A DNA stretch of 64,000 nucleotides from Heterodontus francisci (Eukaryota): assembly GCF_036365525.1 (NCBI RefSeq), contig NC_090396.1:73712605-73776604 (forward strand), written 5' to 3'. Below, in pieces: positions 31 to 47,399 of this stretch (positions are counted from its first letter, which is position 1; every line of letters starts with the position of its first letter). Position numbers and translations under genes: made by a program. Under the pieces are notes generated by a model. That model was not told where the DNA came from and made no database searches. It saw only the letters and a list, made by a program, of their open reading frames with translations.

Positions 31-850
31 AGGCTGAATTTTACAGCACCCCGACGTCGGGGTCATGGCAGGGGCAGTGGTGGGTGGGGGGGGGTGTGGA
101 AAATGCCTCTGGCAGAGGCCTGTTACAGGCCTTGGTGCCGGAAAGGCCCAGCCTGATATTGCCGGCGACGGCGAGACCTCGGGGCGTCCCCCCAGCTGCT
201 CGGCAACAGGATCAAAATTGACATATTTAAATAAATGTAAATAAAGGCATTAATTACCTTTCTACCTCCCGTCCCGCCGCAATATTGGCGGCGGTGGCCG
301 GCACTCCCGTGCCTCCGGGTCCCCGTCCTGGGATCTGAGGTGAAACACTGGTGGGGAGTGGGGAGCAGGTAAGTTTTTCAGTGCGGGAGTTGGGGGAGCA
401 GTGTCAGAGTCCTTTCATTGGTGTAGGGGTTGGTGAGAAGGGGTAAAGTTTAAAGTTTCTGAACTTTGAGGGGGAGAAGGTCAGGTGTACCAGGTAAGTG
501 TTTTGTGGGGGGAGAGGGCAGGTAATTATTTGCATGGTTATTGGATGGGCAGAGGTAGGACAGGGTCAGGATAAATTAATTTATATTTTTATTTCACTGC
601 AGCTTTAAAAATTTTAATTAAATGGAAGGGCTCGAAGTCCTTTAAAAAGGGCATCACCGCCTGTGCAAAGCTGCTAATGCCATTGCCGGGGACGGACCGC
701 CTACCCCCTCCATGTCATCGGGGTGGGCAGTCCGACCCAGCCATTTAAATGAGCCACCACGCTGAAAATCACGGCATTCCACAACGTGTGGTCTGCGCGC
801 GCGGACCACCCTGGTTTATGTATTGGTGGCGGCAATGTAAAATGCAGCCC
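31..850. mobile_element. Non-autonomous PIF/Harbinger-type element (MITE)
   Basis: Imperfect TIRs AGGCTGAATTTTAC (31-44) and GTAAAATGCAGCCC (837-850); 3-bp direct repeat ATC on both sides (28-30, 851-853); no transposase ORF; same TIR type as the element at 35554. Confidence 0.75.
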
Positions 851-976
851 ATCTCCAAAGGTAGCAGGAAAAGTCGAAAATGTTGGTAAAAAAGCATGTG
901 GGCTTTCTGATCTATCTCTGATAGAGTTGTTTGAGGGAGGGCTGTTGACCAAGAGCATTAGGAGAACTGTAAACTG

Positions 977-1058
977 AAATGCTGGAAATACTCAGCAGGT
1001 CAGGCAGCATCTGTGGAGAGAGAAGCAGGTAATGTTTCAGGCCTGTGACTTTTCATCC
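977..1058 (-). mobile_element. Penelope-like terminal fragment, degenerate hammerhead remnant
   Basis: Recurrent module AAATGCTGGAAATACTCAGCAGGTCAGGCAGCATCTGTGGAGAGAGAAGCAG, also seen near 16.8, 26.7, 38.1, 45.5, 53.5 and 56.0 kb. Confidence 0.5.
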
Positions 1059-1064
1059 TTTTGC

Positions 1065-1288
1065 TTTAGGAGGACTCTCTGGTCTTCTGTGAATAGCGCC
1101 ATGGGATATTTTACTTAACCAGACCCATGTTGGTTTAACATCTCAATCAAAAGACAGCAGCTCCAGCCTCTAATGAGGCATTGCCTCACAACTCTGCTGT
1201 GTCAGCCTACATTACTTTGTGAAGTCCTTGGAGTGAAGCTTCAACCCATAGCCGTCAGGCTCAGAGACAGGAGTGCTTATTGAGCTCA
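1065..1288 (-). mobile_element. Deu-domain SINE fragment, degenerate
   Basis: Reverse-complement similarity to the SINE copy at 1490-1938. Confidence 0.5.
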
Positions 1289-1489
1289 CAGTCTGTGTAT
1301 GAATGAACTTCTGACATGCTATCACTACAGGTTTAATGGTGCAGTGGAATTCCAGAGAAAGATGCTAGAGAAGACGATTGCTGTTCCTGTGGATAAACAC
1401 AACAGAGAAAAAACTTTTTGACCCCCTGATCCATTTACTTTTATTTTCTTATTCAAATCAATAAGCATTTTTCTTGTTCTTTCATGACA

Positions 1490-1938
1490 TCTGGTAGCAC
1501 TCTCATTTCTGAGTTAGAAGGTTTGGGTTTATGTCCCACTCCAGAGACTTGAGCACAAAAATCCAGGCTGGTACTCCAGTGCAGTACCGAGGGAGTACAG
1601 CACTGTCAGAAGTGCCTTTTTTCAGGTGGGATGTTAAACCAAGGCCCCATCTGGTCTCTCAGGTGGACGTAAAATATCCCATTACACTATTTGAAGAAGA
1701 GCAGAGGATTCTCCCTGGTGTCCTTGGTAATATTTATCCCTCAATCAACATCACAAAAACAGATGATCTGATCATTATAACATTGCTATTTGTGGGAGCT
1801 TGCTATGCACAAATTGGCTGCCGTGTTTCCTACATTGCAACAGTGACTACACTCCAAAAGTACTTCATTGGCTGTAAAGCTCTTTGAGATGTCCTTAGGT
1901 TGTGTAAGTTGCTATATAAATGCAAGTTCTTTCTTTCC
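1490..1938 (+). mobile_element. DeuSINE (SacSINE1/AmnSINE1-like)
   Basis: tRNA-like head; Deu-domain-like core (GATGTTAAACCAAGGCCCCATCTG...TATTTATCCCTCAATCAACATCAC); tail GCTATATAAATGCAAG; several copies in the window. Confidence 0.75.
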
Positions 1939-2280
1939 TTTTTATACTTTCAGGAGAAGCAATATTTTTATAACTTTAAGGATATTTTTTCCTGGTACTA
2001 TGGTGTTACCCCTATAATCAGTCAGTTGGGTTTTACTTTTCAGGATATGGCCATACTGCCCAATGTCTAGCTATATGATAACCTAACCCATGGATTTAAC
2101 AGCAGTGCACCCTTGTGATTTGAACTGGATATTTATGTCTTTTACACATGTCCCCCACGTGCACTTCAATCTTTCCAAAGGTTGACAAGGCCGGAAACAA
2201 ATTGTTAAGCTGCTTTGTTGCAAAGAGTCAGCACAGGCATGATGGGCTGAAAGGCCTCCTTCTGTGCTGTAAGATTCTAT

Positions 2281-2532
2281 AGGCTGGATTTTAACTTAAC
2301 TGAGCAGCCTGGAGCAAGTTGGGGGTCTTGGTAAGGCACAGGGAGCCCCAAGTCAGGCATTGAAAGTGACAACCCACATTCCTGAAGCAGGTCAGTCGCC
2401 TGCCCATCGTCTGTCTCTGTTAAAACTGGAAGTGGGCAGATTGCAAATGGGTTTGGATCGGGTTCAGGTTTTTAACACTTTAACCTTCTACTCAACCCAA
2501 ACCTGCCAATTTTTTGAGGTTAATATTCCCCC
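2281..2532. mobile_element. Short Harbinger-like MITE, degenerate
   Basis: AGGCTGGATTTTAAC ... GTTAATATTCCCCC weak inverted ends; TSD unclear. Confidence 0.4.
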
Positions 2533-2539
2533 TAAGATT

Positions 2540-2905
2540 CAATTATTTATCCAATTCGTTTGAGAAAGCAGCTGCCGAATTTGCTCCCACCGCCCTTTCA
2601 GGCAGTGCATTCCAAATCATAACAACTCACTGCGTACATAGAAATTCTCCTCATCTCCCCTCTGGATCTGTGCCTTCTGGTTACTGAGCCTCCTGCCTGT
2701 GGAGACAGTTTCTCCCTATCTGCTCCATATAAGAAAAATCTTCAGAATTTTGAGCATCTCGATTAAATCTACCGGCAGCATTCTCTGCTCCAAGGAGAAC
2801 AATGATAGCTTCTCTAGTCACTCTACATAACTGACGTCCCTCATCCTTGGAACTATTCTAGTAAATCTCCTCAGCACCCTCTCCAAGGCCATGACATCCT
2901 TCCTA
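2540..2905 (-). mobile_element. CR1 LINE 3' fragment
   Basis: Reverse complement resembles the CR1 ORF2 C-terminal region found in other copies. Confidence 0.65.
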
Positions 2906-3044
2906 GGAAGTGTTGGCGTGCATTGCGATGACTACAGGTGCAGACTGTATTTCTGTTTCATGTGACTCCATTATTTGAGAATAGAGTGCTTGTGGTGCAA
3001 GTTATTTCTTGAGCCTAATCTACATATTGAATTACAATGTACCA

Positions 3045-3612
3045 GATCAATCCGTGCCTGTATGCAGCAAGACCCGAACAATATTCAGGCTTGAGCTGAT
3101 AAGTGGCAATTAACATTCGCGCCATACAAGTGCTAGATAATGACCAACAAGAGAGAATCTAACCAACTCCCCTTCACATTGCAGCTCCAACAACACTTGA
3201 TGCCATCAAGGACAAAGCTGCCCACTTGATTGGCACCCCATCCACCACCTTCAACATTCACTCCCTCCACCACCAGTGCACAGTGGCAGCAGTGTGTACA
3301 TCTACAAGATGCACTGCAGCAACTCACCAAGGCTCCTTTGACAAACCCACGGCCTGTACCACCCTGAAGGACAAGGGCAGCAGATGCATTGGAACACCAC
3401 CACATACAAGTTCCCCTATAACTCATACACCATCCTAACTTGGAAATATATCACTGTTCCTTATTAACTGTTGCTGGGTCGAAATCTTGGAACTCCCTCT
3501 CGAACAGCACTATGGGTGTACCTCGGCCACGTGGACTGCTGTGGCTCAAGAAGGCGGCTCACCACCACCTTCTCAAGGACAATTAGGGATAGGTAATAAA
3601 TGCTGGCCTTGT
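3045..3612 (+). mobile_element. CR1-group LINE 3' fragment (second family)
   Basis: RT C-terminal remnant (AWADKWQ-like) and tail CACCACCTTCTCAAGG...AATAAATGCTGGCCT; related copies at 25800-26100 (-) and 33227-33525 (+). Confidence 0.6.
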
Positions 3613-4496
3613 GTGTTTGCTGGAAAGGGTTGAGTTGTTCAGCCACCGAATTCATAGAGAGTGCAGCCCAGAACATACACCACATCCACGGTATGCTCAG
3701 TATAGGTGACTAAACCTTCAGCACTCCTCATAGTTCAAACCCGAAATTTGCTTGACCCCGCCACGGCGAGCCAGGCGGTGAATTGCTGATTTGGTGATGC
3801 CCAGGATATCATCACAAAGTACTTTGCGGTGCCACTTTGCTCTGCCTTTGCCCAGTCCTTTGCCTCCTTTACCTCTGCCAGACATGATCATTTTTCACTC
3901 AGATCACTGCACACATCCCATGAACAAATAAATAAATCTTCCCTTTCACTCCATTTGGGTAGAATTCCAGTGAAACAAACCCCTTCTGAGTCATTCTGTT
4001 GTCACAGAATACTAATCAGCCAAATGCCTTCCTATATATGTCAACTACAAAGAATTACTGAGCTAAGCTTAAAATGCTGCTCAATTATTCAGTGTTTAAT
4101 GCTTAGCAATCATTTTACTGTAGAGGCTGAGAACAGTTTGGCAATATAATTGTTTTAATATAAAGGACACAGCTTCATCCAGTGATCTGTGCTGCTTTTG
4201 ATGGGATTGGATAATTATGTGGATTTTGGGATACAAATTTGCCACTGGTTCTTTTATCTGTAATTTGTTAACTTTCTGATCCAAACATTATATTTTTTTA
4301 ACAGATTGTTTATCAGGATTCCACTATTAAACCTAGAGAAAGTGTTGCTGAAAAAGATTCTATCCGTAGTTTGTGCCCCAAATTTAAAAACTATTTCTGT
4401 TGTCAAATTACTGAGGAGACTCTGGATTTTTCCTTTTGCTGCTGAGAGAACATGCTGAGCATAATCCTTTCAACATCTATGTTCTTATTTTTAGTG

Positions 4497-4958
4497 TGGG
4501 AACTTCAGTTATATGGAGAGACCGGAGAAGCTAGGATTGTTCTCCTCAGAGCAGAGAACGTTAAAACAGAGAACGTTAAAAGGAGATTTGATAGAGGTGT
4601 TCAAAATAATGAAGAGTTTTGATAGAGTGAGTCAGGAGAAACTGTTTCCAGAGTAACCAGAGTCAGTAACCAGAGGGCACAGATTTAAGGTAATTGACAA
4701 AAGAACCAGAGGGGATATGAGAAAGCATTTTTTCACACAGTGGGTTGTTGTGATCTGGAATGCGCTGCCTGAAAGGACAGTGAAAGCAGATTCAATAGTA
4801 ACTTTCAAAAGGGAATTAGATAAATACTTGAAAAAGAAAAAGATTACAGGTTTATGGGGAAAGAGCCAGGGAGTGGGACTAATCGTATAGCTCTTTCAAA
4901 GAGCCAGCACAGGCATGAGGGGCCGCAAGGCCTCTTTCTGTGCTGTAAGATCCTAAGA
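4497..4958 (+). mobile_element. CR1 LINE 3' fragment
   Basis: Encodes LGLFS..QR / RGH.FKV / FFTQ.V..IWNALP-like motifs, followed by a CR1 3' tail. Confidence 0.7.
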
Positions 4959-17098: not shown

Positions 17099-19315
17099 TT
17101 GGATCAATTTCTGATTAACCAGGGAGTGGAAGGATATTGGGTTGGGTATAAGTTTCAATCTCATAATGAAGAGCTGGAACCTGTCATAGCCGCTAAGCGC
17201 ATTGCACTTTTGAACTACAAGAAAGCCCCCAGCGATTTAACATCCGCAGCACTTAAAGCAGCCAGAAGTACTGCACAAAGAACAGCTAGGCGTTGCGCAA
17301 ACGACTACTGGCAACACCTATGCAGTCATATTCAGCTGGCCTCAGACACCGGAAACATCAGAGGAATGTATGATGGCATGAAGAGAGCTCTTGGGCCAAC
17401 CATCAAGAAGATCGCCCTCCTCAAATCTAAATCGGGGGACATAATCACTGACCAACGCAAACAGATGGACCGCTGGGTTGAGCACTACCTAGAACTGTAC
17501 TCCAGGGAGAATGCTGTCACTGAGACTGCCCTCAATGCAGCCCAGCCTCTACCAGTCATGGATGAGCTGGACATACAGCCAACCAAATCGGAACTCAGTG
17601 ATGCCATTGATTCCCTAGCCAGCGGAAAAGCCCCTGGGAAGGACAGCATTACCCCTGAAATAATCAAGAGTGCCAAGCCTGCTATACTCTCAGCACTACA
17701 TGAACTGCTATGCCTGTGCTGGGACGAGGGAGCAGTACCCCAGGACATGCGCGATGCCAACATCATCACCCTCTATAAAAACAAAGGTGACCGCGGTGAC
17801 TGCAACAACTACCGTGGAATCTCCCTGCTCAGCATAGTGGGGAAAGTCTTTGCTCGAGTCGCTCTGAACAGGCTCCAGAAGCTGGCCGAGCGCGTCTACC
17901 CTGAGGCACAGTGTGGCTTTCGTGCAGAGAGATCGACTATTGACATGCTGTTCTCCCTCCGTCAGATACAGGAGAAATGCCGTGAACAACAGATGCCCCT
18001 CTACATTGCTTTCATTGATCTCACCAAAGCCTTTGACCTCGTCAGCAGACGTGGTCTCTTCAGACTACTAGAAAAGATCGGATGTCCACCAAAGCTACTA
18101 AGTATCATCACCTCATTCCATGACAATATGAAAGGCACAATTCAACATGGTGGCTCCTCATCAGAGCCCTTTCCTATCCTGAGTGGTGTGAAACAGGGCT
18201 GTGTTCTCGCACCCACACTTTTTGGGATTTTCTTCTCCCTGCTGCTTTCACATGCGTTCAAATCCTCTGAAGAAGGAATTTTCCTCCACACAAGATCAGG
18301 GGGCAGGTTGTTCAACCTTGCCCGTCTAAGAGCGAAGTCCAAAGTACGGAAAGTCCTCATCAGAGAACTTCTCTTTGCTGACGATGCTGCTTTAACATCT
18401 CACACTGAAGAATGCCTGCAGAGTCTCATCGACAGGTTTGCGTCTGCCTGCAATGAATTTGGCCTAACCATCAGCCTCAAGAAAACGAACATCATGGGGC
18501 AGGATGTCAGAAATGCTCCATCCATCAATATTGGCGACCACGCTCTGGAAGTGGTTCAAGAGTTCACCTACCTAGGCTCAACTATCACCAGTAACCTGTC
18601 TCTAGATGCAGAAATCAACAAGCGCATGGGTAAGGCTTCCACTGCTATGTCCAGACTGGCCAAGAGAGTGTGGGAAAATGGCGCACTGACACGGAACACA
18701 AAAGTCCGAGTGTATCAGGCCTGTGTCCTCAGTACCTTGCTCTACGGCAGCGAGGCCTGGACAACGTATGCCAGCCAAGAGCGACGTCTCAATTCATTCC
18801 ATCTTCGCTGCCTTCGGAGAATACTTGGCATCAGGTGGCAGGACTATATCTCCAACACAGAAGTCCTTGAAGCGGCCAACACCCCCAGCTTATACACACT
18901 ACTGAGTCAGCGGCGCTTGAGATGGCTTGGCCATGTGAGCCGCATGGAAGATGGCAGGATCCCCAAAGACACATTGTACAGCGAGCTCGCCACTGGTATC
19001 AGACCCACCGGCCGTCCATGTCTCCGTTATAAAGACGTCTGCAAACGCGACATGAAATCGTGTGACATTGATCACAAGTCGTGGGAGTCAGTTGCCAGCA
19101 TTCGCCAGAGCTGGCGGGCAGCCATAAAGACAGGGCTAAATTGTGGCGAGTCGAAGAGACTTAGTAGTTGGCAGGAAAAAAGACAGAGGCGCAAGGGGAG
19201 AGCCAACTGTGCAACAGCCCCAACAAACAAATTTCTCTGCAGCACCTGTGGAAGAGCCTGTCACTCCAGAATTGGCCTTTATAGCCACTCCAGGCGCTGC
19301 TTCACAAACCACTGA
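17099..19315 (+). CDS. RTE reverse transcriptase ORF (RT plus C-terminal C2H2-like finger; APE endonuclease lost by truncation)
   Basis: KAPGKD, NYRGISLL, QCGFR, FIDLTKAFD, GVKQGCVLAP, LLFADD, FTYLGS, CSTCGRACHSRIGLYSH; the first ~18 codons are flanking DNA with a TTG start. Confidence 0.9.
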   Translation: MDQFLINQGVEGYWVGYKFQSHNEELEPVIAAKRIALLNYKKAPSDLTSAALKAARSTAQRTARRCANDYWQHLCSHIQLASDTGNIRGMYDGMKRALGPTIKKIALLKSKSGDIITDQRKQMDRWVEHYLELYSRENAVTETALNAAQPLPVMDELDIQPTKSELSDAIDSLASGKAPGKDSITPEIIKSAKPAILSALHELLCLCWDEGAVPQDMRDANIITLYKNKGDRGDCNNYRGISLLSIVGKVFARVALNRLQKLAERVYPEAQCGFRAERSTIDMLFSLRQIQEKCREQQMPLYIAFIDLTKAFDLVSRRGLFRLLEKIGCPPKLLSIITSFHDNMKGTIQHGGSSSEPFPILSGVKQGCVLAPTLFGIFFSLLLSHAFKSSEEGIFLHTRSGGRLFNLARLRAKSKVRKVLIRELLFADDAALTSHTEECLQSLIDRFASACNEFGLTISLKKTNIMGQDVRNAPSINIGDHALEVVQEFTYLGSTITSNLSLDAEINKRMGKASTAMSRLAKRVWENGALTRNTKVRVYQACVLSTLLYGSEAWTTYASQERRLNSFHLRCLRRILGIRWQDYISNTEVLEAANTPSLYTLLSQRRLRWLGHVSRMEDGRIPKDTLYSELATGIRPTGRPCLRYKDVCKRDMKSCDIDHKSWESVASIRQSWRAAIKTGLNCGESKRLSSWQEKRQRRKGRANCATAPTNKFLCSTCGRACHSRIGLYSHSRRCFTNH

Positions 19316-19375
19316 CCACCTCCAGGCGCGTATCCATTGTCTCTCGAGATAAGGAGGCCCAAAAGAAAAGAATAA
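17154..19375 (+). mobile_element. Young RTE-clade LINE, 5'-truncated
   Basis: Long open ORF, 3' UTR ending GGAGGCCCAAAAGAAAAG, possible ATAAG TSD. Confidence 0.95.
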
Positions 19376-19949
19376 GAACAAGGAAAGATTTGGTCAGTTT
19401 GATCATGTTCATGGACCAATTGGACTTTGCTCTTAAATTATTATCTTGCTTGCTAGTTTGCTTGCTCATGCTTTCTCAGGTGCTGGTACCGTACAGGTAC
19501 GTTGTGTCTGGTAGGTTATACACTACTTGCACATACACACTGAAGTTTTTCACACTGGGCCAAATGGGGTTACTGTTTTGCTGATGGTTTGTTACTTCTC
19601 TCTATTTTTTCTTACCCCAACCTCCCACACAAGCAATCCACCCTGCAGATAATTTCAAGGAGATCATTGGTACATCTTCTTGGTCAGTGGTACAGGAAGG
19701 AATACCTCTGAGTAGTTTTCCCTCTAGTCAAACCTGGCAGAAACTATCAGAGATTTGCACTACAGTGCACATATCATTTGACTCTGGGACTCTCTATTGA
19801 AAGAGAATGTTAGACTCTAACATACATGCGTACAACATCTCTCCACTTGAGTATAATTTGTCTAGTTAGCAGTGGACTATTCACAGAGTGGGAACAAGAC
19901 TAGGTCTGTGAACGAATGATTGAAATGCCTGTTGATGGTTACTTTTTTT

Positions 19950-34550: not shown

Positions 34551-35787
34551 AAAGAATAAAAATGAATTTCCTCCAAATAAATATTGAAAAGACTGAAGCC
34601 ATTGCTTTCGGTCCCCACTCCAAACTCTGTTCCCTAGCTAGCAACTCCATCCCGCTCCCTATCAACAGTCTGCAGATAAACCAGTCTGTTCGCAACCTTG
34701 GTTTCACATTTGATCCCACAATGAGCTTCCGACCCCACAGTCACACCATCCCTAAGACCGCTTATTTCCACCAACATAACATGGCCTGACTTTGCCCCGG
34801 TCTCAGCTCATCTATTGTTGAAACCCTCATTCATGCCTTCGTTGTCTCTAGACTTGACTATTCCAGTGCAGTCCTGGCTGGTCTCCCACATTTTACTCTC
34901 TATAAACATGAGGTAATCTGCTGTCCGTGCCTTAACTCACACCAAGTCCTGTTCACCTATCACCCCTGTGCTTGCTCACCTACACTAGCTCCCAGTTGAG
35001 CAACGTCTTGATTTTAAAATTCTCATCCTTGTTTTCAAATCCCTTCATGGCCTCAGCCCTTCCTATCCCTGTAATCTCCTCCAGCATCCAAACCATCCGA
35101 GATCTCTGCGCTCCTCTAATTCTGGCCTCATGAGCATCCCCGATTTTAATCACTCTGACATTGGTGGCTGCACCTTCAGTTGCCTAGGCCCCAAGCTGTG
35201 GAATACCCTCCCTACACCTCTCCATCTCTTTCCTTGCTTTTCTCCTTTAAGACACTCCTTAATACCTTAAGCTTTTGGTCATCTGGCCTATTATCTCCTT
35301 ATGTGGCTCAGCGCCTTGTTTTATAATGCTCCTGTGAAGCGTCTTGTAACATTTTATTATGTTAAGGTGTTATATAAACGTAAGTAGTTTTTATTGAAGT
35401 CGTTCAGTGTCCTATTTTAAACTCAGATGGGCATTACACCTTTATTCTTTAAGGCTGAATCTCCATACCTCCCTTCTGTTCATGACTGTGCTCACATTAA
35501 CTTCATTCAGATTATACTGAGGCTCTGACATGGCCTCCAGCTCCCGACACACTGGGCTGAATTTTATTGGCCCGCTGCATTTTACTAGCGACGGCGTGAC
35601 CTCGGTGCAGCCCCTCCCCATCGCATGGCGGCGGCGGCGCCACAATTAGCATATGGTAATGATTACTCACCTTTGCTGATTATGCAGCCCACCACCTCTC
35701 CACCGACACTGCCGGATTTTTTGTTGAACTGACGGCCATCACGTGCCATCCCGTTCACGATCTGAAAAGCCGGCGAGTCCTCAGTGT

Positions 35788-36035
35788 GCATTATGGAAGG
35801 AGTGGGGGGGATACACAGGGGTCTCACTCTGCATTATGAAAGGGAGGAGGGAGGGGAGATACACAGGGGTCTAACTCTGCATTATGAAAGGGAGGAGGGA
35901 GGGGAGCTACACAGGGGTCTAACTCTGCATTATGAAAGGGAGGAGGGAGGGGGGATACACAGGGGTCTCACTCTGCATTATGAAAGGGAGGAGGGAGGGG
36001 GGATACACAGGGGTCTAACTCGGCATTATGAAAAG
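35788..36035. repeat. 48-bp tandem repeat (about 5 copies) inside Harbinger A
   Basis: GCATTATGAAAGGGAGGAGGGAGGGGGGATACACAGGGGTCTCACTCT. Confidence 0.92.
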
Positions 36036-36559
36036 GAGGGCGTCTGGGATTACTGGAGGGAAAGCTGTGCTGGCATGAAGGGAGGTACCATGTACCATCC
36101 CTCCGTTAACAGTGTACTCTCTGTGTTTGTGAGGGGGCAATGGCACACTAGGCACCCTGTGTGTGGGGAGGGTGCCAGAAAGGGCAGGAGCATTAAGGTT
36201 TTATGGATGGTGGGGGCAATTGATTCAGCTGGTAGGATCCTGGTGTGGTCATGCTGTGCCACTCTGAGTGTTGGCCAAGATGGGCAATGCCATGGCACAC
36301 CACATAGTTGATCCAGGAAAATAGCTGATGTACCCGTCAACACCAATCCCTGCCCTGTTAGGAACCTTCGAATACATGCAGGGTTCAACTTTATTTATCA
36401 CATGGAAATAGGTGTGGTTCATCTTACATTGTGTGATCCTCTGCATGTGAGGATCCCTATGCACACGAGGCAATACCAACAGGTAAGTGCGATCCACGTA
36501 GAGACCCCCGGTTGTGAGCAGCAGCCCCCAAGGGGAGCCCGCCATTATGGTTGCCGTAC

Positions 36560-37340
36560 ATCTACAGGCCCCACATGATATGCCATCAGATGTCAGAGCA
36601 CTAGTGTCACAGGAGATTGTGCATATAGAGAGGGTGGTGACACGTCTCTGTGCCCTGCTCAAGGATGACCTGCAGCCCGTGTGCTCCGGTGGACATCCCA
36701 TGCCTTTGTTCCTCATAGTGGCAGCGGTTCGCAAGCCTGACAACTCTGCAGCCTTTTAGGGGCCCACAGAGACCTTTGTGGGGTCACATAGTCAGCAGTG
36801 CACTGCTGCATCAGGGACGTCACCAATGCCCTGCACCGGAGGGTCTGTGAGGATGTCCGCTTCAGGACAGTCTCTCACAGCCAGGCCCACAGGGCCATTG
36901 GTTCTGGCACCATTGCCGGAGAACCATAGGTTATAATGTTCATAGACTGCACTCATGTGGCCATCAGGTCTACTGCCAGGCTATCACCATTAAAGAAGCC
37001 CTCTCAATCAAGGTGAAGCTGGTATGTGAACACCACAGATGGTTGCAGCGAATGTATGACCGCTTCTCAGGCAGCTGCCATGACACCTGGGTCTTGCACC
37101 AGTCCCAGCTGCCACCGCTGTTCACTGAACTGGCTCAGATGGAGGGGTGGCTTCTTGGAGTTAAGGGCTTTCCTTTGCAGACATGGCTCCCGACACCAGT
37201 GAGAGACTCCACCACAGCTGCAGAGGAGAGATACAATGTCAGCCACTGAGCTACATGAGCCATCATTGAACAGGAGATCGGCCTGCTGAAAGAGCACCTC
37301 CAATGCCTGTATGGATAGGGTGATGCCCTGTACTAGGGGC
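36560..37340 (+). pseudogene. Harbinger DDE transposase pseudogene
   Basis: Motifs above, broken by stops and frameshifts; the GDxGY catalytic Asp is replaced by Val. Confidence 0.8.
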
Positions 37341-38092
37341 TGAAAAGACCAGCTCCTTTCTTTGCTGCTCTGCACATCTACGCACCCAATAGGCCTGGCA
37401 TAATGAGGAGAGACGTCAACAGGATTCCTCCTTGGACTATGAGGATGCTGAGGACCTATAATATGAAAGACGCATGGGAGGGCAGATGGCACCCAGGCTC
37501 TGCACGCAGGGGTAGCAGTGAACTAGGGATGTACAGCAGTGGCTTATCAGCTGTCTGCTCCATAGGAACTGACATGAGCTCTGCAAGCCACACATCACCC
37601 TCGCTCACCTGCTGTGCACCTGTCCACATCTGCAGCATCCCTGTGTAAACCATTAGAGGCAGCAGCTGACTGAGCCAATGTCCCTGTCACTGCATCCATA
37701 GAGACGCTCAGAGTAATGGTGACATGGAAATGATGTTATTGCATATGTTGGCTCTTCTGAAGGGCCAACGGTGCAAAGGGATGTGACATTGGTGCTACAT
37801 GCTGGCACACATCATTCACACAGAGAAAAGGACACACATGTTGGTGAGGAACATTTAGTGAAAGACTTATTTACATTGCTGTGACACCCGTGCATTCCCA
37901 TTTGTGTCAGTGTGTTCTCTGTAAACCTCTGTAATATCTTTTATGGTCTATTTAAGTCACACGTCCTGGAATGTGCAAAATTAAGATTATTCACCCAGGT
38001 GCGGCACGCCTACAGGAAGGAATGTTACATCTGAGTGGGAGAAGAAGATCGCAGCTTCACAGGACACTGGGACACAGCGGGGTAAGTATGTG

Positions 38093-38260
38093 GCAGCAAA
38101 GCGGAAAATGCTGGGGTCACTCAGCAGGCCAGGCAGCATTTGTGGAGAGAGAAGCAGAGTTAACTTTCAGGTCTGTGAACTTGGACAAGTTAACTCTGCT
38201 TCTCTCTCCACAGACGCTGCCTGACCTGCTAGATTTCTGCAGCACTTTCTGCTTTGCTGC
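38093..38260. repeat. About 70-bp inverted repeat built from two Penelope-like terminal modules
   Basis: GCAGCAAA...GAGAGAGAAGCAGAGTTAACT pairs with AGTTAACTCTGCTTCTCTCTC...TTTGCTGC across a loop of about 22 nt. Confidence 0.8.
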
Positions 38261-38567
38261 CAGATTGACAGCAGCCCCACTCTTCAGCAGTCAGGTAAGT
38301 ATTCTTTGACAACTGTCAGGAAGCAGTTGCTGGGGCGTTTAAAATAGGGCCCCAGTACCTGCTGCACAGCTGTCAAAGACTCTCTCACTGCGCCGAACGT
38401 CCTGCCTCTCCCCACCTAATATGGGGAGGGCGGCTCAGCGCCATGATTCTAAGGAGCCCCTGCGATTAATATCGCGGGGTCTCGACGGCGGCCGGCGAAT
38501 GCGGGTGCACCACCGAGTTCATAGGGTGCCGCCGCAGATGGCAGCGCCCCAATAAAATTCAGCCCTA

Positions 38568-40915
38568 TGCGTGGCTTGCAGAGCTCATGTTGGTTCCTAT
38601 GGAGCAAAGAACCTTTGTCTGATAAGCCACTGCCGTACATCCCTAGCTCACTGCTAGCCCTGCGTGCAGAGCCTGGGTGCCATCTGCCCTCCCATGCGTC
38701 TTTCATATTATAGGTCCTCAGCTTCCTCATAGTCTGAGGAGGAATCCTGTTGACATCTCTCATCATCATACCAGGCCTGGCCCCTATTGGATGCATCGTT
38801 GTGCAGAGCAGCAAAAAAAGGAGCTGGTCTTTTCAGCCCCTAGTACAGGGCATCACCCTATCCATACAGGCATTGGAGGTGCTCTTTCAGCAGGCCGATC
38901 TCCTGTTCAATGATGGCTTATGTAGCTCAGTGGCTGACATTGTATCTCTCCTCTGCAGCTGTGGTGGAGTCTCTCACTGGTGTCGAGAGCCATGTCTGCA
39001 AAGGAAAGCCCTTAACTCCAAGAAGCCACCCCTCCATCTGAGCCAGTTCAGTGAACAGCGGTGGCAGCTGGGACTGGTGCAAGACCCAGGTGTCATGGCA
39101 GCTGCCTGAGAAGCGGTTACACATTCGCTGCAACCATCTGTGGTGTTCACATACCAGCTTCACCTTGGTTGAGAGGGCTCCTTTAATGGTGGTAGCCTGG
39201 CAGTAGACCTGATGGCCACATGAGTGCAGTCTATGAACATTATAACCTATGGTTCTCTGGCAATGGTGCCAGAACCAATGGCCCTGGGGGTCTGGCTGTG
39301 AGAGTCCGTCCTGAAGCGGACATCCTCACAGACCCTCCGGTGCAGGGCATTGGTGACGTCCCTGATGCAGCAGTGCACTGCTGACTATGTGACCCCACAA
39401 AGGTCTCTGTGGGCCCCAAAAAGGCTGCAGAGTTGTCAGGCTTGCGAACCGCTGCCACTATGAGGAACAAAGGCATGAGATGTCCACCGGATCCATGGGC
39501 TGCAGGTCATCCTTAAGCAGGGCACAGAGACGTGTCACCACCCTCTCTATATGCGCAATCTCCTCTGACACTAGTGCTCCAACATCTGATGGCATATCAT
39601 GTGGGGCCTGTAGATGCACGGCAACCATAATGGCGGGCTCCCCTTGGGGGCTACTGCTCACAACCGGGGGTCTCTACGTGGATCGCACCTACCTGTTGGT
39701 ATTGGCTCGTGTGCATAGGGATCCTCACATGCAGAGGATCACACAATGTAAGATGAACCACACCTATTTCCATGTGATAAATAAAGTTGAACCCTGCATG
39801 TATTCGAAGGTTCCTAACAGGGCAGGGATTGGTGTTGACGGGTACAACAGCTGCTTCCTGCATCAACTATGTGGCGTGCATTGGCATTGCCCATCTTGGC
39901 CAACACTCAGAGTGGCACAGCATGACCACGTCAAGATCCTAACAGCTGAATCGATTACCCCCACCATCCATAAAACCTTAATGCTCCTGCCCTTTCTGGC
40001 ACCCTCCCCACACACAGGGTGCCTAGTGTGCCATTGCCCCCTCACAAACACAGAGCGTACACTGTTAACAGAGGGATGGTACACGGTACCTCCCTTCATG
40101 CCAGCACAGCTTTCCCTCCAGTAATCCCTGACCCCCTCCCTTTAAGAATGCAGAGTTAGACCCCTGTGTATACCCCCCTCCTCCCTTCCATATTTCGGAG
40201 AGAGGACCCGCCGGCTTTTCAGATCGTGAACGGGACGGCACGTGATGGCCACCCGTTAAACAAAAAATGCGGCAGTGTCAGTGGAGAGGTGGCAGGCTGC
40301 ATAATCAGCAAAGGTAAGTAATCATTCTTCTTTTTCTTTTCTTCTTTTGGGCCTCCTTATCTCGAGAGACAATGGATACGCGCCTGGAGGTGGTCAGTGG
40401 TTTGTGAAGCAGCGCCTGGAGTGGCTATAAAGGCCAATTCTGGAGTGACAGGCTCTTCCACAGGTGCTGCAGAGAAATTTGTTTGTTGGGGCTGTTGCAC
40501 AGTTGGCTCTCCCCTTGCGCCTCTGTCTTTTTTCCTGCCAACTACTAAGTCTCTTCGACTCGCCACAATTTAGCCCTGTCTTTATGGCTGCCCGCCAGCT
40601 CTGGCGAATGCTGGCAACTGACTCCCACAACTTGTGATCAATGTCACACGATTTCATGTCGCGTTTGCAGACGTCTTTATAACGGAGACATGGACGGCCG
40701 GTGGGTCTGATACCAGTGGCGAGCTCGTTACCATATGCTAATTGTGGTGCCACTGCATGTGGTGGGGGATGGGGCCACACCGAGGTCCTGCCGCCATCGG
40801 TAATATGTGGCGGGCCCTTCTTGACCCCGGGGGTCAAGGCGGGCCACTCTCCGCAGCATTTTACCGGCCCCCGCGCCACGACCCATGGCATTGAGGGGCC
40901 GCTAAAATTCAGCCC
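38568..40915 (-). mobile_element. PIF/Harbinger copy B, inverted and truncated at the right TIR of copy A
   Basis: Reverse-complement copy of about 35570-37595 (paired ORFs 37013-37249 + and 38927-39163 - differ at 3 of 78 aa); outer TIR CTAAAATTCAGCCC ends at 40915. Confidence 0.9.
40326..40727 (-). mobile_element. RTE 3' fragment inserted in Harbinger B
   Basis: Nearly identical to 18982-19370; the 69-aa alternative-frame ORF is identical in both copies. Confidence 0.95.
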
Positions 40916-41152
40916 ACTGACTGTGCAGCCAGGGACATCACCTCACAATCGTGCCAAATCCATGCACATGCAATTAGCATACTTTATTCATGCCGGAGCC
41001 TCTGTGAAGAGCTACCCTGAACAAGGTGCCAATCATTGTTAAAAACAGCTGGCCAGGCTTCACATTGCTGTAAAAATATTCCATTCATGTTTCAGTTATA
41101 CCTCATTAAGGACTTTCCTTCTTCCCCTCAACCCCCCGCTTTTCTTTTTCAG

Positions 41153-41287
41153 ATTTTATCCAAAGCCTTAAAAGAGTGTCATGAGAAATCAAGTGCTGAG
41201 GGACAACCGTTGGCTCTGAAAGTTTTTGTGGCAGGCAGAAATCGTCTGGAGAATGATGGTGCTGTTGTATTAGCCGAGACCTTCAGG
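41153..41287 (+). CDS. RANGAP1: Ran GTPase-activating protein 1-like coding exon (135 nt, LRR region)
   Basis: Polypyrimidine tract + AG; [45 protein letters not shown]; GTACGT donor; contains the RanGAP GRNRLE motif. Confidence 0.95.
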
Positions 41288-41699
41288 GTACGTAAGCTTT
41301 CAAATCCCTTATGAGAAAGAGGGTGAAAGATAGTTCGGAATTAAATAATCTCTCCATGACATTCTCTGATTTGTTTTATATATATTATATATGAATGAGA
41401 TGCTGTTGAATGTAATTTTCCAGATTACGATGAAACTGCAGAAACGTCTGGCCTATATTTGTCACCTTCAATGAAAAATCTCCCTGTTCCCTTTTTAGTC
41501 GGTGTGTGAATTTTTTGCTCTTCCTTCCCCTTTTCTTGGGTTCTGTGCACTATTGCTGGGCAAGAGGCCTTGTTCTCAGGCTTCTGTTAATGATGATCAG
41601 ATCAATTAGAGCGGAGCTGCGGTTTGTCTTCTCATGATGCAGCAATGTGCCATGTGCCTAAGTGAGACCAGCAATTCACTACAGGGATGATTTTAAAAA

Positions 41700-46365: not shown

Positions 46366-46707
46366 TCCCTTAACAGTGGAACTCGATTAAAAGTTGTTTC
46401 TTGCAGATTTCTCTTGTGGAATTTAATCAATGGCGCTTCATCTGATGAGACTGGTTAAACATCATGTCTCATTTATATTGACTCTGGGAGAGTTGCCCTT
46501 TCAAACTGGGTTCTAGCAGATCACCAGTGATTGATTGTATGTCTGTTGGAAACCACTTTGCAATAAGATCAACACATATGTTCTGTCATTCACAAATCAG
46601 GCAAAGCCACAACTGCTGGCTCCCTGGCTTGTGTATAACACTAAAAATGGTACATGATTTAATGTCTCTGTGCTGCAGGGGACTTTGAAATGCTTCTTTT
46701 TTTTTAG

Positions 46708-46866
46708 CTGATTGGAACTTTGGAGGAAGTGCAGATGCCACAGAATGGAATTACCCACGAAGGTATCAGTGCTCTGGCCAGGGCTTTCACAAAGAACACC
46801 AACCTCCGGATCCTCAATCTCAACGACAACACCTTCACTGAAATTGGGGCGATCTCCATGGCAGAG
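46708..46866 (+). CDS. RANGAP1: Ran GTPase-activating protein 1-like coding exon (159 nt, LRR region)
   Basis: T-tract + TAG; [53 protein letters not shown]; GTATGT donor; in frame with the previous exon. Confidence 0.95.
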
Positions 46867-47399
46867 GTATGTGTGCATCTGTGGGAGAGCTGTTCCTTCA
46901 CCACTCCATCTCAGATGTTGCTGCGGACAGGCACTAAGTGGAGAAAGGAGCAGAGGGTGAAAACCAGGAATGGCGTAATCAGTGGTCTTACATAGTATTT
47001 ACAGCACAAAAACAGGCCATTTGGCCCAATTGGTCCATCTCAGTGTTTATCCTCCACACAAGCCTCTTCCCACCCTATCTTAACCCCATCAACATATCCT
47101 TCTATTCCTTTCTCCCTCATATAGCTTCCTCTTTTTTCACCTCAACCATTCCTGTACTAGCATGTTCCACACTCTCAGCACTCTGAGTAAAGACGTTTCT
47201 TCTGAATTCCCTACTGGATTTGGTGGAAATCTGGGAGCAGAACAAACTCATCGCAGGATGGGAAAGAGTGAAAATATTTACCTATTAGTTTCTATCTTCC
47301 AGTTGGGATTGCAATGACTAATAAACCATTTACTTGTAAAATCCCCCTCCCTTCTAATCCAATTGAAGAGGCCTGGATAACACGGATTCTGGAGTTTTT

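What the first reader, a model, noticed from the sequence alone, without database searches (positions are those of the whole stretch)
35551..40918. 5.4-kb palindromic Harbinger composite: two opposed copies, three TIRs, one shared ACT duplication
Seen: copy A (35554-38565) has perfect 17-bp TIRs but no TSD of its own (ACT on the left, TAT on the right). An inverted, truncated copy B starts 2-3 nt after the right TIR of A and ends in a TIR at 40915. ACT flanks the whole unit (35551-35553 and 40916-40918). Both arms share the same transposase-killing lesions (GVKGF in place of GDxGY, same stop after YNVSH) yet differ at scattered sites. Established: PIF/Harbinger elements make 3-bp TSDs. Inference: either the composite moved as a single foldback-like unit using two left ends, or A inserted into B and a deletion removed the 3' half of B. 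A mobile palindromic Harbinger would be an unusual element type. A 3-bp match can also arise by chance.
Basis: partly seen in the sequence, partly recalled or inferred. Interest (0 to 1): 0.7.

Follow-up and report, generated by a model that had tools for sequence, protein, structure and literature searches.

The report
Nested shark transposons, megabase gene conversion
This is not a jumping palindrome: it is two dead copies of a common shark DNA transposon at one spot, likely one landed inside the other and a deletion then trimmed the pair, and these two and a third copy 636 kb away share private mutations, likely copied between them by gene conversion, as copies of this family lying within about 4 Mb of each other do across the genome.

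Summary
The anatomy is real, but a mobile palindrome is unsupported. In this ~3-kb non-autonomous Harbinger family TIR bases 14-15 are TT in 97 of 101 right ends but 2 of 133 left ends. The outer terminus at 35554 has TT and jumps into A's left subterminal, so it is likely B's own right TIR fused to A by a ~1-kb deletion. ACT/ACT is then B's TSD, and A is nested in B. Both junctions are single-copy. The arms are too alike for independent copies (96% vs at most 92.7%), but only in a ~1-kb tract. A third copy, 636 kb away and inverted to A, shares A's private alleles through the body, not the ends; the GVKGF lesion occurs in these three only. Genome-wide, copies under 4.5 Mb apart share 3.7-fold excess rare alleles (149 vs 40, 56 pairs; 27 vs 11 in newly fetched pairs), body-restricted and transversion-rich. 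Likely ectopic gene conversion reaching megabases, against ~10 kb reported for Alu. The unit lies in an intron of a RanGAP1-like gene in an F8/int22h-like layout. No earlier scan note covered this DNA.

The parts
35551..35553 (+). ACT, one copy of B's 3-bp target-site duplication
   Evidence: the rejoined site CCGACAC-ACT-GACTGTG scores above every sampled background position under the family's target matrix
35554..35570 (-). Right-type TIR (TT at bases 14-15), likely the remnant of B's right end, fused to A's left subterminal
   Evidence: TT in 97 of 101 right ends, 2 of 133 left ends; 84 bp of the normal left end missing; pattern unique to this locus among family copies
35571..38565 (+). Copy A, non-autonomous Harbinger, consensus positions ~103-3034
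35787..36039 (+). 48-bp tandem array inside A, variable in length across the family
36851..37249 (+). Broken transposase remnant of A (DDE_Tnp_4, PF13359), GVKGF in place of the family's GDKGY
   Evidence: E 3.4e-6, over cut-off
36414..37462 (+). Tract of A that shares private alleles with B (likely conversion tract)
   Evidence: 22 shared rare alleles inside, 0 outside
38088..38265 (.). Internal palindromic element, present in the family consensus and also free elsewhere in the window
38549..38565 (+). Right TIR of A, precise end
38566..38568 (+). TAT, B-internal sequence at A's insertion point (one mismatch to the consensus triplet); likely the surviving copy of A's TSD
   Evidence: half-site ranks 88 of 2341 positions in B under the target matrix
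38566..40915 (-). Copy B, 5' two thirds of the element (consensus 1-~2067)
38707..39761 (-). B side of the likely conversion tract
   Evidence: mapped through the alignment
40322..40727 (-). 406-bp insertion in B, 98% identical to window 18982-19384; LINE 3' fragment, RTE-like by recall (no Pfam hit)
40899..40915 (-). Left TIR of B, followed by a complete left subterminal
40916..40918 (+). ACT, second copy of B's TSD
41153..41290 (+). Exon of the RanGAP1-like host gene, 234 bp downstream of the unit; next exon 46702-46869

Best explanation
The unit is a single-copy pair of dead Harbinger elements that likely arose when copy A inserted into the older, opposite-strand copy B and a deletion then likely fused B's right TIR to A's left subterminal, and the private mutations shared by A, B and a third copy C 636 kb away were likely spread by ectopic gene conversion. 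Steps: (1) B inserts at ACT (TSD and target fit shown; order inferred). (2) A inserts into B near consensus 2067 (precise TIR end shown; transposase origin inferred). (3) About 1 kb between B's right end and A's left end, which point the same way, is lost, taking B's 3' third, A's left TSD and A's first ~100 bp; either one join at 2-10 bp of homeology or a TIR-to-TIR join followed by an 84-bp GGCCC deletion gives the observed letters (inferred). (4) Breaks inside one copy are repaired from a neighbouring copy without crossover, homogenising A with C over ~2.3 kb and B with A/C over ~1 kb (allele sharing shown; mechanism inferred). The same signature is seen among other family copies up to ~4.5 Mb apart.
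For: TIR type: TT in 97 of 101 right and 2 of 133 left ends (60 of 65 and 1 of 81). Junction and fused end single-copy; both flanks unique. A-B 96.0% over 36050-37595 vs at most 92.7% in 560 control pairs. Rare alleles A-B: 22 shared inside the tract, 0 outside (p 2e-5); A-C 41 shared vs at most 11 in 1,176 control pairs. A-C CpG-site differences 12 of 134 in the body but 30 of 76 at the ends, equal to background (p 2e-7). Mosaic AB-only (4) and BC-only (2) alleles. Genome-wide, 169 copies: 149 shared rare alleles vs 40.0 expected in 56 pairs under 4.5 Mb, about 1-fold beyond 6 Mb; ends 10 vs 7.7; transversions 80 of 149 vs 31%; position-shuffle p 0.0005, also without the pairs noticed first; alleles clustered, 30 vs 17.7; excess dome-shaped along the element. 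Host-gene exons collinear across the A-C interval, so no crossover is fixed.
Against: A left end can read TT (2 of 133) and left-end deletions occur in several copies, so the fused-end reading is a ~64:1 likelihood argument, not proof. The junction triplet has one mismatch to consensus and the full two-sided site is only rank 174 of 3012. The empty site was not read (laid nothing on it). The central A/B junction was not shown bridged in run data. One rare allele is shared by A and C at consensus 259, near the left end, and their non-CpG end divergence is below average. The excess is still 3.2-fold at consensus 2701-3000, and the ends test has few counts (hop-only p 0.007), so some local hopping may contribute. 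Copies were top BLAST hits to parts of A or B, not a random sample; in newly fetched pairs the excess was smaller (27 vs 11.3 at 2-4.5 Mb).
Confidence: 0.73

Rival explanations
1. The 5.4-kb unit transposed as one foldback-like element.
For: ACT flanks the whole unit and both outer ends carry a TIR; a single cut-and-paste move would leave no second copy.
Against: No second copy of the junction or of the fused end. The outer ends are B's own left and right types, so ACT/ACT needs no extra move. Only 17 nt of the right end survive and one of three left-end subterminal motif copies is lost at 35554; Harbinger3_DR's Myb-like protein binds subterminal motifs (PMC9710019 passage).
Confidence: 0.05
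2. A inserted first at ACT; B then inserted head-to-head into A's right TSD; an adjacent deletion from A's right TIR removed B's 3' part; A's left end separately lost 84 bp and changed CC to TT.
For: Explains ACT/ACT and the precise TIR junction; GGCCC lies at both ends of the 84-bp gap; TT left ends exist (2 of 133).
Against: Needs four events, an insertion exactly on a TSD and a 1-2% double change; no family left end with this deletion was found genome-wide.
Confidence: 0.07
3. The similarity is by descent: A is a late, local-hop daughter of C, and linked copies genome-wide are parent and daughter.
For: Local hopping is typical of cut-and-paste elements (established knowledge). A and C share alleles and private indels over 2.3 kb; C's flanks show no TSD match; some linked pairs share scattered alleles.
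Against: A hop copies the ends too, yet A-C ends are at background CpG divergence (30 of 76 vs 12 of 134 in the body); the same holds for L174-L204 and L121-L170. It cannot explain the A-B tract bounded on both sides. Ends of linked pairs show 10 vs 7.7 expected.
Confidence: 0.11
4. Assembly or polishing artefact created the inversion or moved alleles between nearby copies.
For: The central junction was not shown bridged, and the runs that hold the locus may be the assembly's own sample.
Against: Run contigs bridge both outer junctions with 0 and 2 differences (records 2 and 8). The arms differ at 4% of sites plus indels. Collapse would not give mosaic tracts that decay over megabases.
Confidence: 0.04

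Closest known systems
Non-autonomous PIF/Harbinger elements; Harbinger3_DR (PMC9179366, PMC9710019, PMC3016246: passages seen)
   Same: DDE_Tnp_4 transposase remnant, short TIRs, 3-bp TSD, extended target preference (here ACAC-NNN-like; Harbinger3_DR AAACACCWGGTCTTT).
   Different: Transposase dead in the family consensus; the Myb-like ORF region is absent from the 3-kb family but present as a remnant in a longer relative (L101).
Non-allelic gene conversion among Alu and LTR copies (PMC6598467 section 4 read; PMC8230782 passages)
   Same: Mosaic shared mutations, tracts, rate falling with distance.
   Different: Reported Alu range is about 10 kb; here the excess runs to ~4.5 Mb, among 3-kb DNA-transposon copies now ~90% identical.
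F8 int22h-1/-2/-3 (PMC7725122 passages; primary paper not held)
   Same: An intronic repeat and an extragenic copy ~0.5 Mb away kept alike by conversion; a crossover would invert and break the gene.
   Different: int22h is a ~10-kb, nearly identical gene-bearing duplicon; here the repeats are 3-kb dead transposons ~97% alike, and no inversion is seen.
Interlocus gene conversion in human segmental duplications (PMC10172114 passages)
   Same: Intrachromosomal conversion over long distances (mean 1.66 Mb, median 216 kb for gene-copying events).
   Different: Those are >90% identical duplications that exclude pure common repeats; here the substrate is a dispersed TE family.
Foldback/long-TIR elements such as Galileo and Tm1 (search listings and abstract starts only)
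   Same: Long inverted arms around a spacer.
   Different: Those are multi-copy families; this unit is single-copy and its arms are two separate insertions.

Membership tests
PIF/Harbinger (copies A, B and their family) | DDE_Tnp_4-type transposase | tested here: met
   PF13359 E 3.4e-6, over cut-off; broken by stops and frameshifts
PIF/Harbinger (copies A, B and their family) | Short TIRs | tested here: met
   13-nt core shared by left and right ends
PIF/Harbinger (copies A, B and their family) | 3-bp TSD | tested here: met
   56 of 78 copies with both ends have an exact 3-bp TSD, 20 more differ by one base
PIF/Harbinger (copies A, B and their family) | Second ORF with Myb/SANT-like domain (autonomous elements) | tested here: inconclusive
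   Remnant in a longer relative: PF13873 E 4.8e-4, just under cut-off, in an ~800-bp stretch that A and the 3-kb family lack; fits a non-autonomous deletion derivative
Mobile foldback/composite element | Multiple copies of the whole unit at different flanks | tested here: not met
Mobile foldback/composite element | TSD made by the two outer ends acting as a new pair | tested here: inconclusive
   ACT/ACT present but equally explained as B's original TSD
Mobile foldback/composite element | Excision or insertion in the presence of transposase | not testable with these tools
   needs a cell assay
Non-allelic gene conversion | Shared derived alleles in bounded tracts | tested here: met
   22 inside vs 0 outside; runs test 53 vs 80 expected
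Non-allelic gene conversion | Flanks not exchanged or duplicated | tested here: met
   flanks unique; host exons collinear
Non-allelic gene conversion | Non-reciprocal transfer with known donor | not testable with these tools
   needs orthologous copies from a sister species or population haplotypes

The most novel reading that the evidence does not exclude
In this shark genome thousands of dispersed, ~90%-identical DNA-transposon copies evolve in concert with their neighbours over a range of several megabases, hundreds of times the range reported for Alu, so the family is a genome-wide ruler for how far germ-line homology search reaches in cis; the A-B-C triad is its strongest case and a latent, haemophilia-like 636-kb inversion of a RanGAP1-like gene.
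Probability: 0.55. Interest if true: 0.62.

Novelty: new variant of a known kind. Interest (0 to 1): 0.43.

Why it matters
The flagged structure is an ordinary nested insertion. The by-product matters more: if conversion between transposon copies reaches ~4 Mb, then (a) TE ages and trees from copy divergence are biased by neighbourhood, (b) repeat families with thousands of evenly spread copies can map the range of ectopic homology search in vertebrate germ lines from one assembly, and (c) inverted pairs like A and C mark sites where a crossover would break genes. It also warns that shared lesions between the arms of an inverted repeat do not show that it moved as a unit.

Tried and rejected
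Subfamily explanation of A-B similarity: rejected; best other copies are 94% where A, B, C are 97-100%, the two-base GVKGF motif is in these three only, and A, B, C each share at most 5 rare alleles with any of 169 copies. Segmental duplication: rejected, flanks unique. A fixed inversion between A and C: rejected, TSD swap does not fit and exons are collinear. Parallel mutation as the source of linked sharing: disfavoured by transversion excess and per-copy normalisation. Two other hits to the fused-end pattern and nine of eleven junction look-alikes were examined and are other elements or ordinary flanks; two look-alikes were not fetched. Empty site in relatives: inconclusive; a depth-42 contig of organism C covers about 35481-35556 and a 1,635-nt depth-42 contig covers 41142-41470, which would fit an empty site if they are one record, but one search did not lay it. 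A helper element was not identified: five of six best PF13359 loci are distant families, one (L246) is a longer 73% relative. Five paper look-ups were not held. Scan look-ups by place and by sequence gave nothing.
Full report
Observation. The coordinates hold: ACT at 35551-35553 and 40916-40918, identical 17-nt termini at 35554 and 38565, and an inverted partial copy B from 38566/7 to 40915. It is an inverted repeat with a 970-bp unpaired spacer, a 406-bp insertion in B and an 84-bp gap at A's left end. The window is G000:C26:73712605-73776604 of a 6.0-Gb genome. The neighbouring exon is RanGAP1-like; the best named match is a Heterodontus francisci protein (97%), so this is likely horn shark DNA.

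The family. Own-genome searches gave 2,472-4,945 first-look candidates, of which 40 were scored each time. Fetched copies are mostly about 3 kb with 3-bp TSDs: 56 of 78 exact, 20 with one mismatch. There is an extended ACAC-NNN target preference, like Harbinger3_DR's AAACACCWGGTCTTT (PMC3016246, passage seen; the lead to this paper came from scan note e1-8656963). The transposase matches PF13359 and is broken in the consensus. A longer, ~72% identical relative keeps a Myb/SANT remnant. So A and B are non-autonomous Harbinger copies.

What the outer left end is. TIR bases 14-15 are TT in 97 of 101 right ends and 2 of 133 left ends. The terminus at 35554 has TT, matches the right end for 17 nt, then continues at about position 103 of the left end. 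All scored family hits to this region begin at query position 67-75, after the TIR. A genome-wide pattern for this fused end found this locus and two unrelated elements. The simplest reading (inference) is that these 17 nt are B's own right end. Then ACT/ACT is B's TSD, A sits inside B, and a deletion of about 1 kb removed B's 3' third, A's left TSD and A's first 100 bp. This also explains why A seems to have perfect TIRs (both are right ends) and no TSD. The rejoined outer site scores above all sampled background positions; A's right junction ranks 88 of 2341 half-sites in B but only 174 of 3012 as a full site. The ACT match alone is weak: 6% for two independent ends.

Mobility. The A/B junction matched end to end only here; a pattern with two mismatches gave 11 other places, of which 9 were examined and none continues as B. 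Both flanks are single-copy. A one-off move cannot be excluded but nothing requires it.

Why the arms are alike. A and B are 96.0% identical over 36050-37595 while 560 control pairs reach at most 92.7% (this set includes three diverged relatives, dropped from later sets). Shared rare non-CpG alleles number 22 inside 36414-37462 and 0 outside. A search with the tract found a third copy C at G000:C26:~73,109,700-73,112,530, 97% identical, 636 kb away and inverted to A; the next best is 94%. GVKGF is present in A, B and C only; the stop after YNVSH is in the family consensus. A and C share 41 rare alleles and several indels from consensus ~680 to ~2800, but their ends differ like unrelated copies: CpG sites differ at 12 of 134 in the body and 30 of 76 at the ends. 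A transposed daughter would carry the ends too, so conversion is the better reading (inference). Four AB-only and two BC-only alleles point to repeated exchange. One shared allele at consensus 259 and below-average non-CpG end divergence cut the other way.

Host gene. The RanGAP1-like exons run collinearly on the plus strand from 73.18 to 73.86 Mb. The unit lies in the ~115-kb intron before the exon at 41153; C lies ~67 kb upstream of the first exon. An A-C crossover would invert four exons and the promoter; none is fixed. The layout recalls F8 int22h, where copies 495 and 571 kb apart are kept alike by conversion and recombine to cause haemophilia A (PMC7725122, passages seen; the primary paper was not held).

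Genome-wide signal. Among control pairs the top sharers were often on one contig. I then fetched copies chosen by position. With 94 copies, pairs under 2.7 Mb shared 1.80 rare alleles per kb vs 0.45 in shuffles (p 0.0005; 1.45 without the pairs noticed first and the top pair). With 169 copies (5 of 80 new ones dropped for short or divergent matches; L098, L101, L110, L128, L179 left out earlier) observed/expected was 4.2, 3.5, 3.6 and 3.8 for 0-1, 1-2, 2-3 and 3-4.5 Mb (149 vs 40.0, 56 pairs), 1.3 at 4.5-6 Mb and 0.9-1.2 beyond. Pairs involving a newly fetched copy gave 27 vs 11.3 at 2-4.5 Mb and 1.4 at 4.5-6 Mb, so the effect replicates but is smaller and probably decays gradually. The shared alleles are transversion-rich (80 of 149 vs 31%), clustered (30 vs 17.7), peak mid-element and are near background at the ends (10 vs 7.7). 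Both orientations show it. Limits: copies were top hits to parts of A or B, bins were first drawn after seeing data, pairs share copies, and some local hopping may contribute.

Run data. Contigs of run X1, possibly the assembly's own sample, bridge both outer junctions with 0 and 2 differences. The central junction was not among the pieces shown. The empty site in a relative was hinted at but not read.

Comparison with the literature. Conversion among TE copies is known; for Alu the stated range is about 10 kb (PMC6598467 section 4 read; PMC8230782 passages). Megabase-range conversion is known for segmental duplications (PMC10172114 passages). Six searches (listings and abstract starts only) showed no report of megabase-range conversion among DNA-transposon copies or of this shark family; the library lacks most subscription papers and I read no supplements, so this is weak. 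A long-range cis preference in P-element gap repair in Drosophila is recalled, not checked. The RTE label for B's insertion is recalled.

Verdict. Observation confirmed; mobile palindrome about 5%; nested insertion plus deletion plus conversion about 73%. The locus is ordinary; the distance-dependent homogenisation is a new variant of a known process. Interest 0.43.

Noticed in passing
L174 and L204 (G000:C12, 1.5 Mb apart); L121 and L170 (G000:C36, 3.9 Mb apart): Two more inverted pairs with low divergence mid-element and background divergence at the ends.
   Followed up: yes
G000:C26:73,179,694-73,858,416: The RanGAP1-like gene spans ~680 kb with introns over 100 kb, while a paralogue on C41 has matches within ~11 kb.
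   Followed up: no
L161 (copy C), left end: C has no matching TSD (CAC vs AGG); the left copy seems lost by a 3-bp deletion, as the site then fits the target consensus.
   Followed up: partly
window 38088-38265: A palindromic element captured in the family consensus also occurs free at several places in the window and is abundant in other sharks' runs.
   Followed up: no
window 35787-36039; L119, L179: The internal 48-bp tandem array has expanded to kilobases in some copies, a possible minisatellite seed.
   Followed up: no
window 40322-40727: Young, very abundant LINE-like 3' fragment inside B, 98% identical to 18982-19384.
   Followed up: no
window 36000-38140, runs X6 and X8: Organisms C and D hold pieces 93-97% identical to A at low depth (2-10, against 42 for a single-copy contig in X6): contamination, few copies or horizontal transfer.
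   Followed up: no
window 35990-37595 with 38567-40184: The host pre-mRNA would carry a ~1.6-kb, ~95% complementary stem 234 bp before a splice acceptor, a possible RNA-editing substrate (inference).
   Followed up: no
G000, genome-wide: 57,863 first-look candidates for PF13359, many of the 150 scored without stops in the domain, although one survey detected no Harbinger in elephant shark (PMC9179366 passage).
   Followed up: no
L159, L160: Other small elements share the same 13-nt TIR core with different interiors.
   Followed up: no
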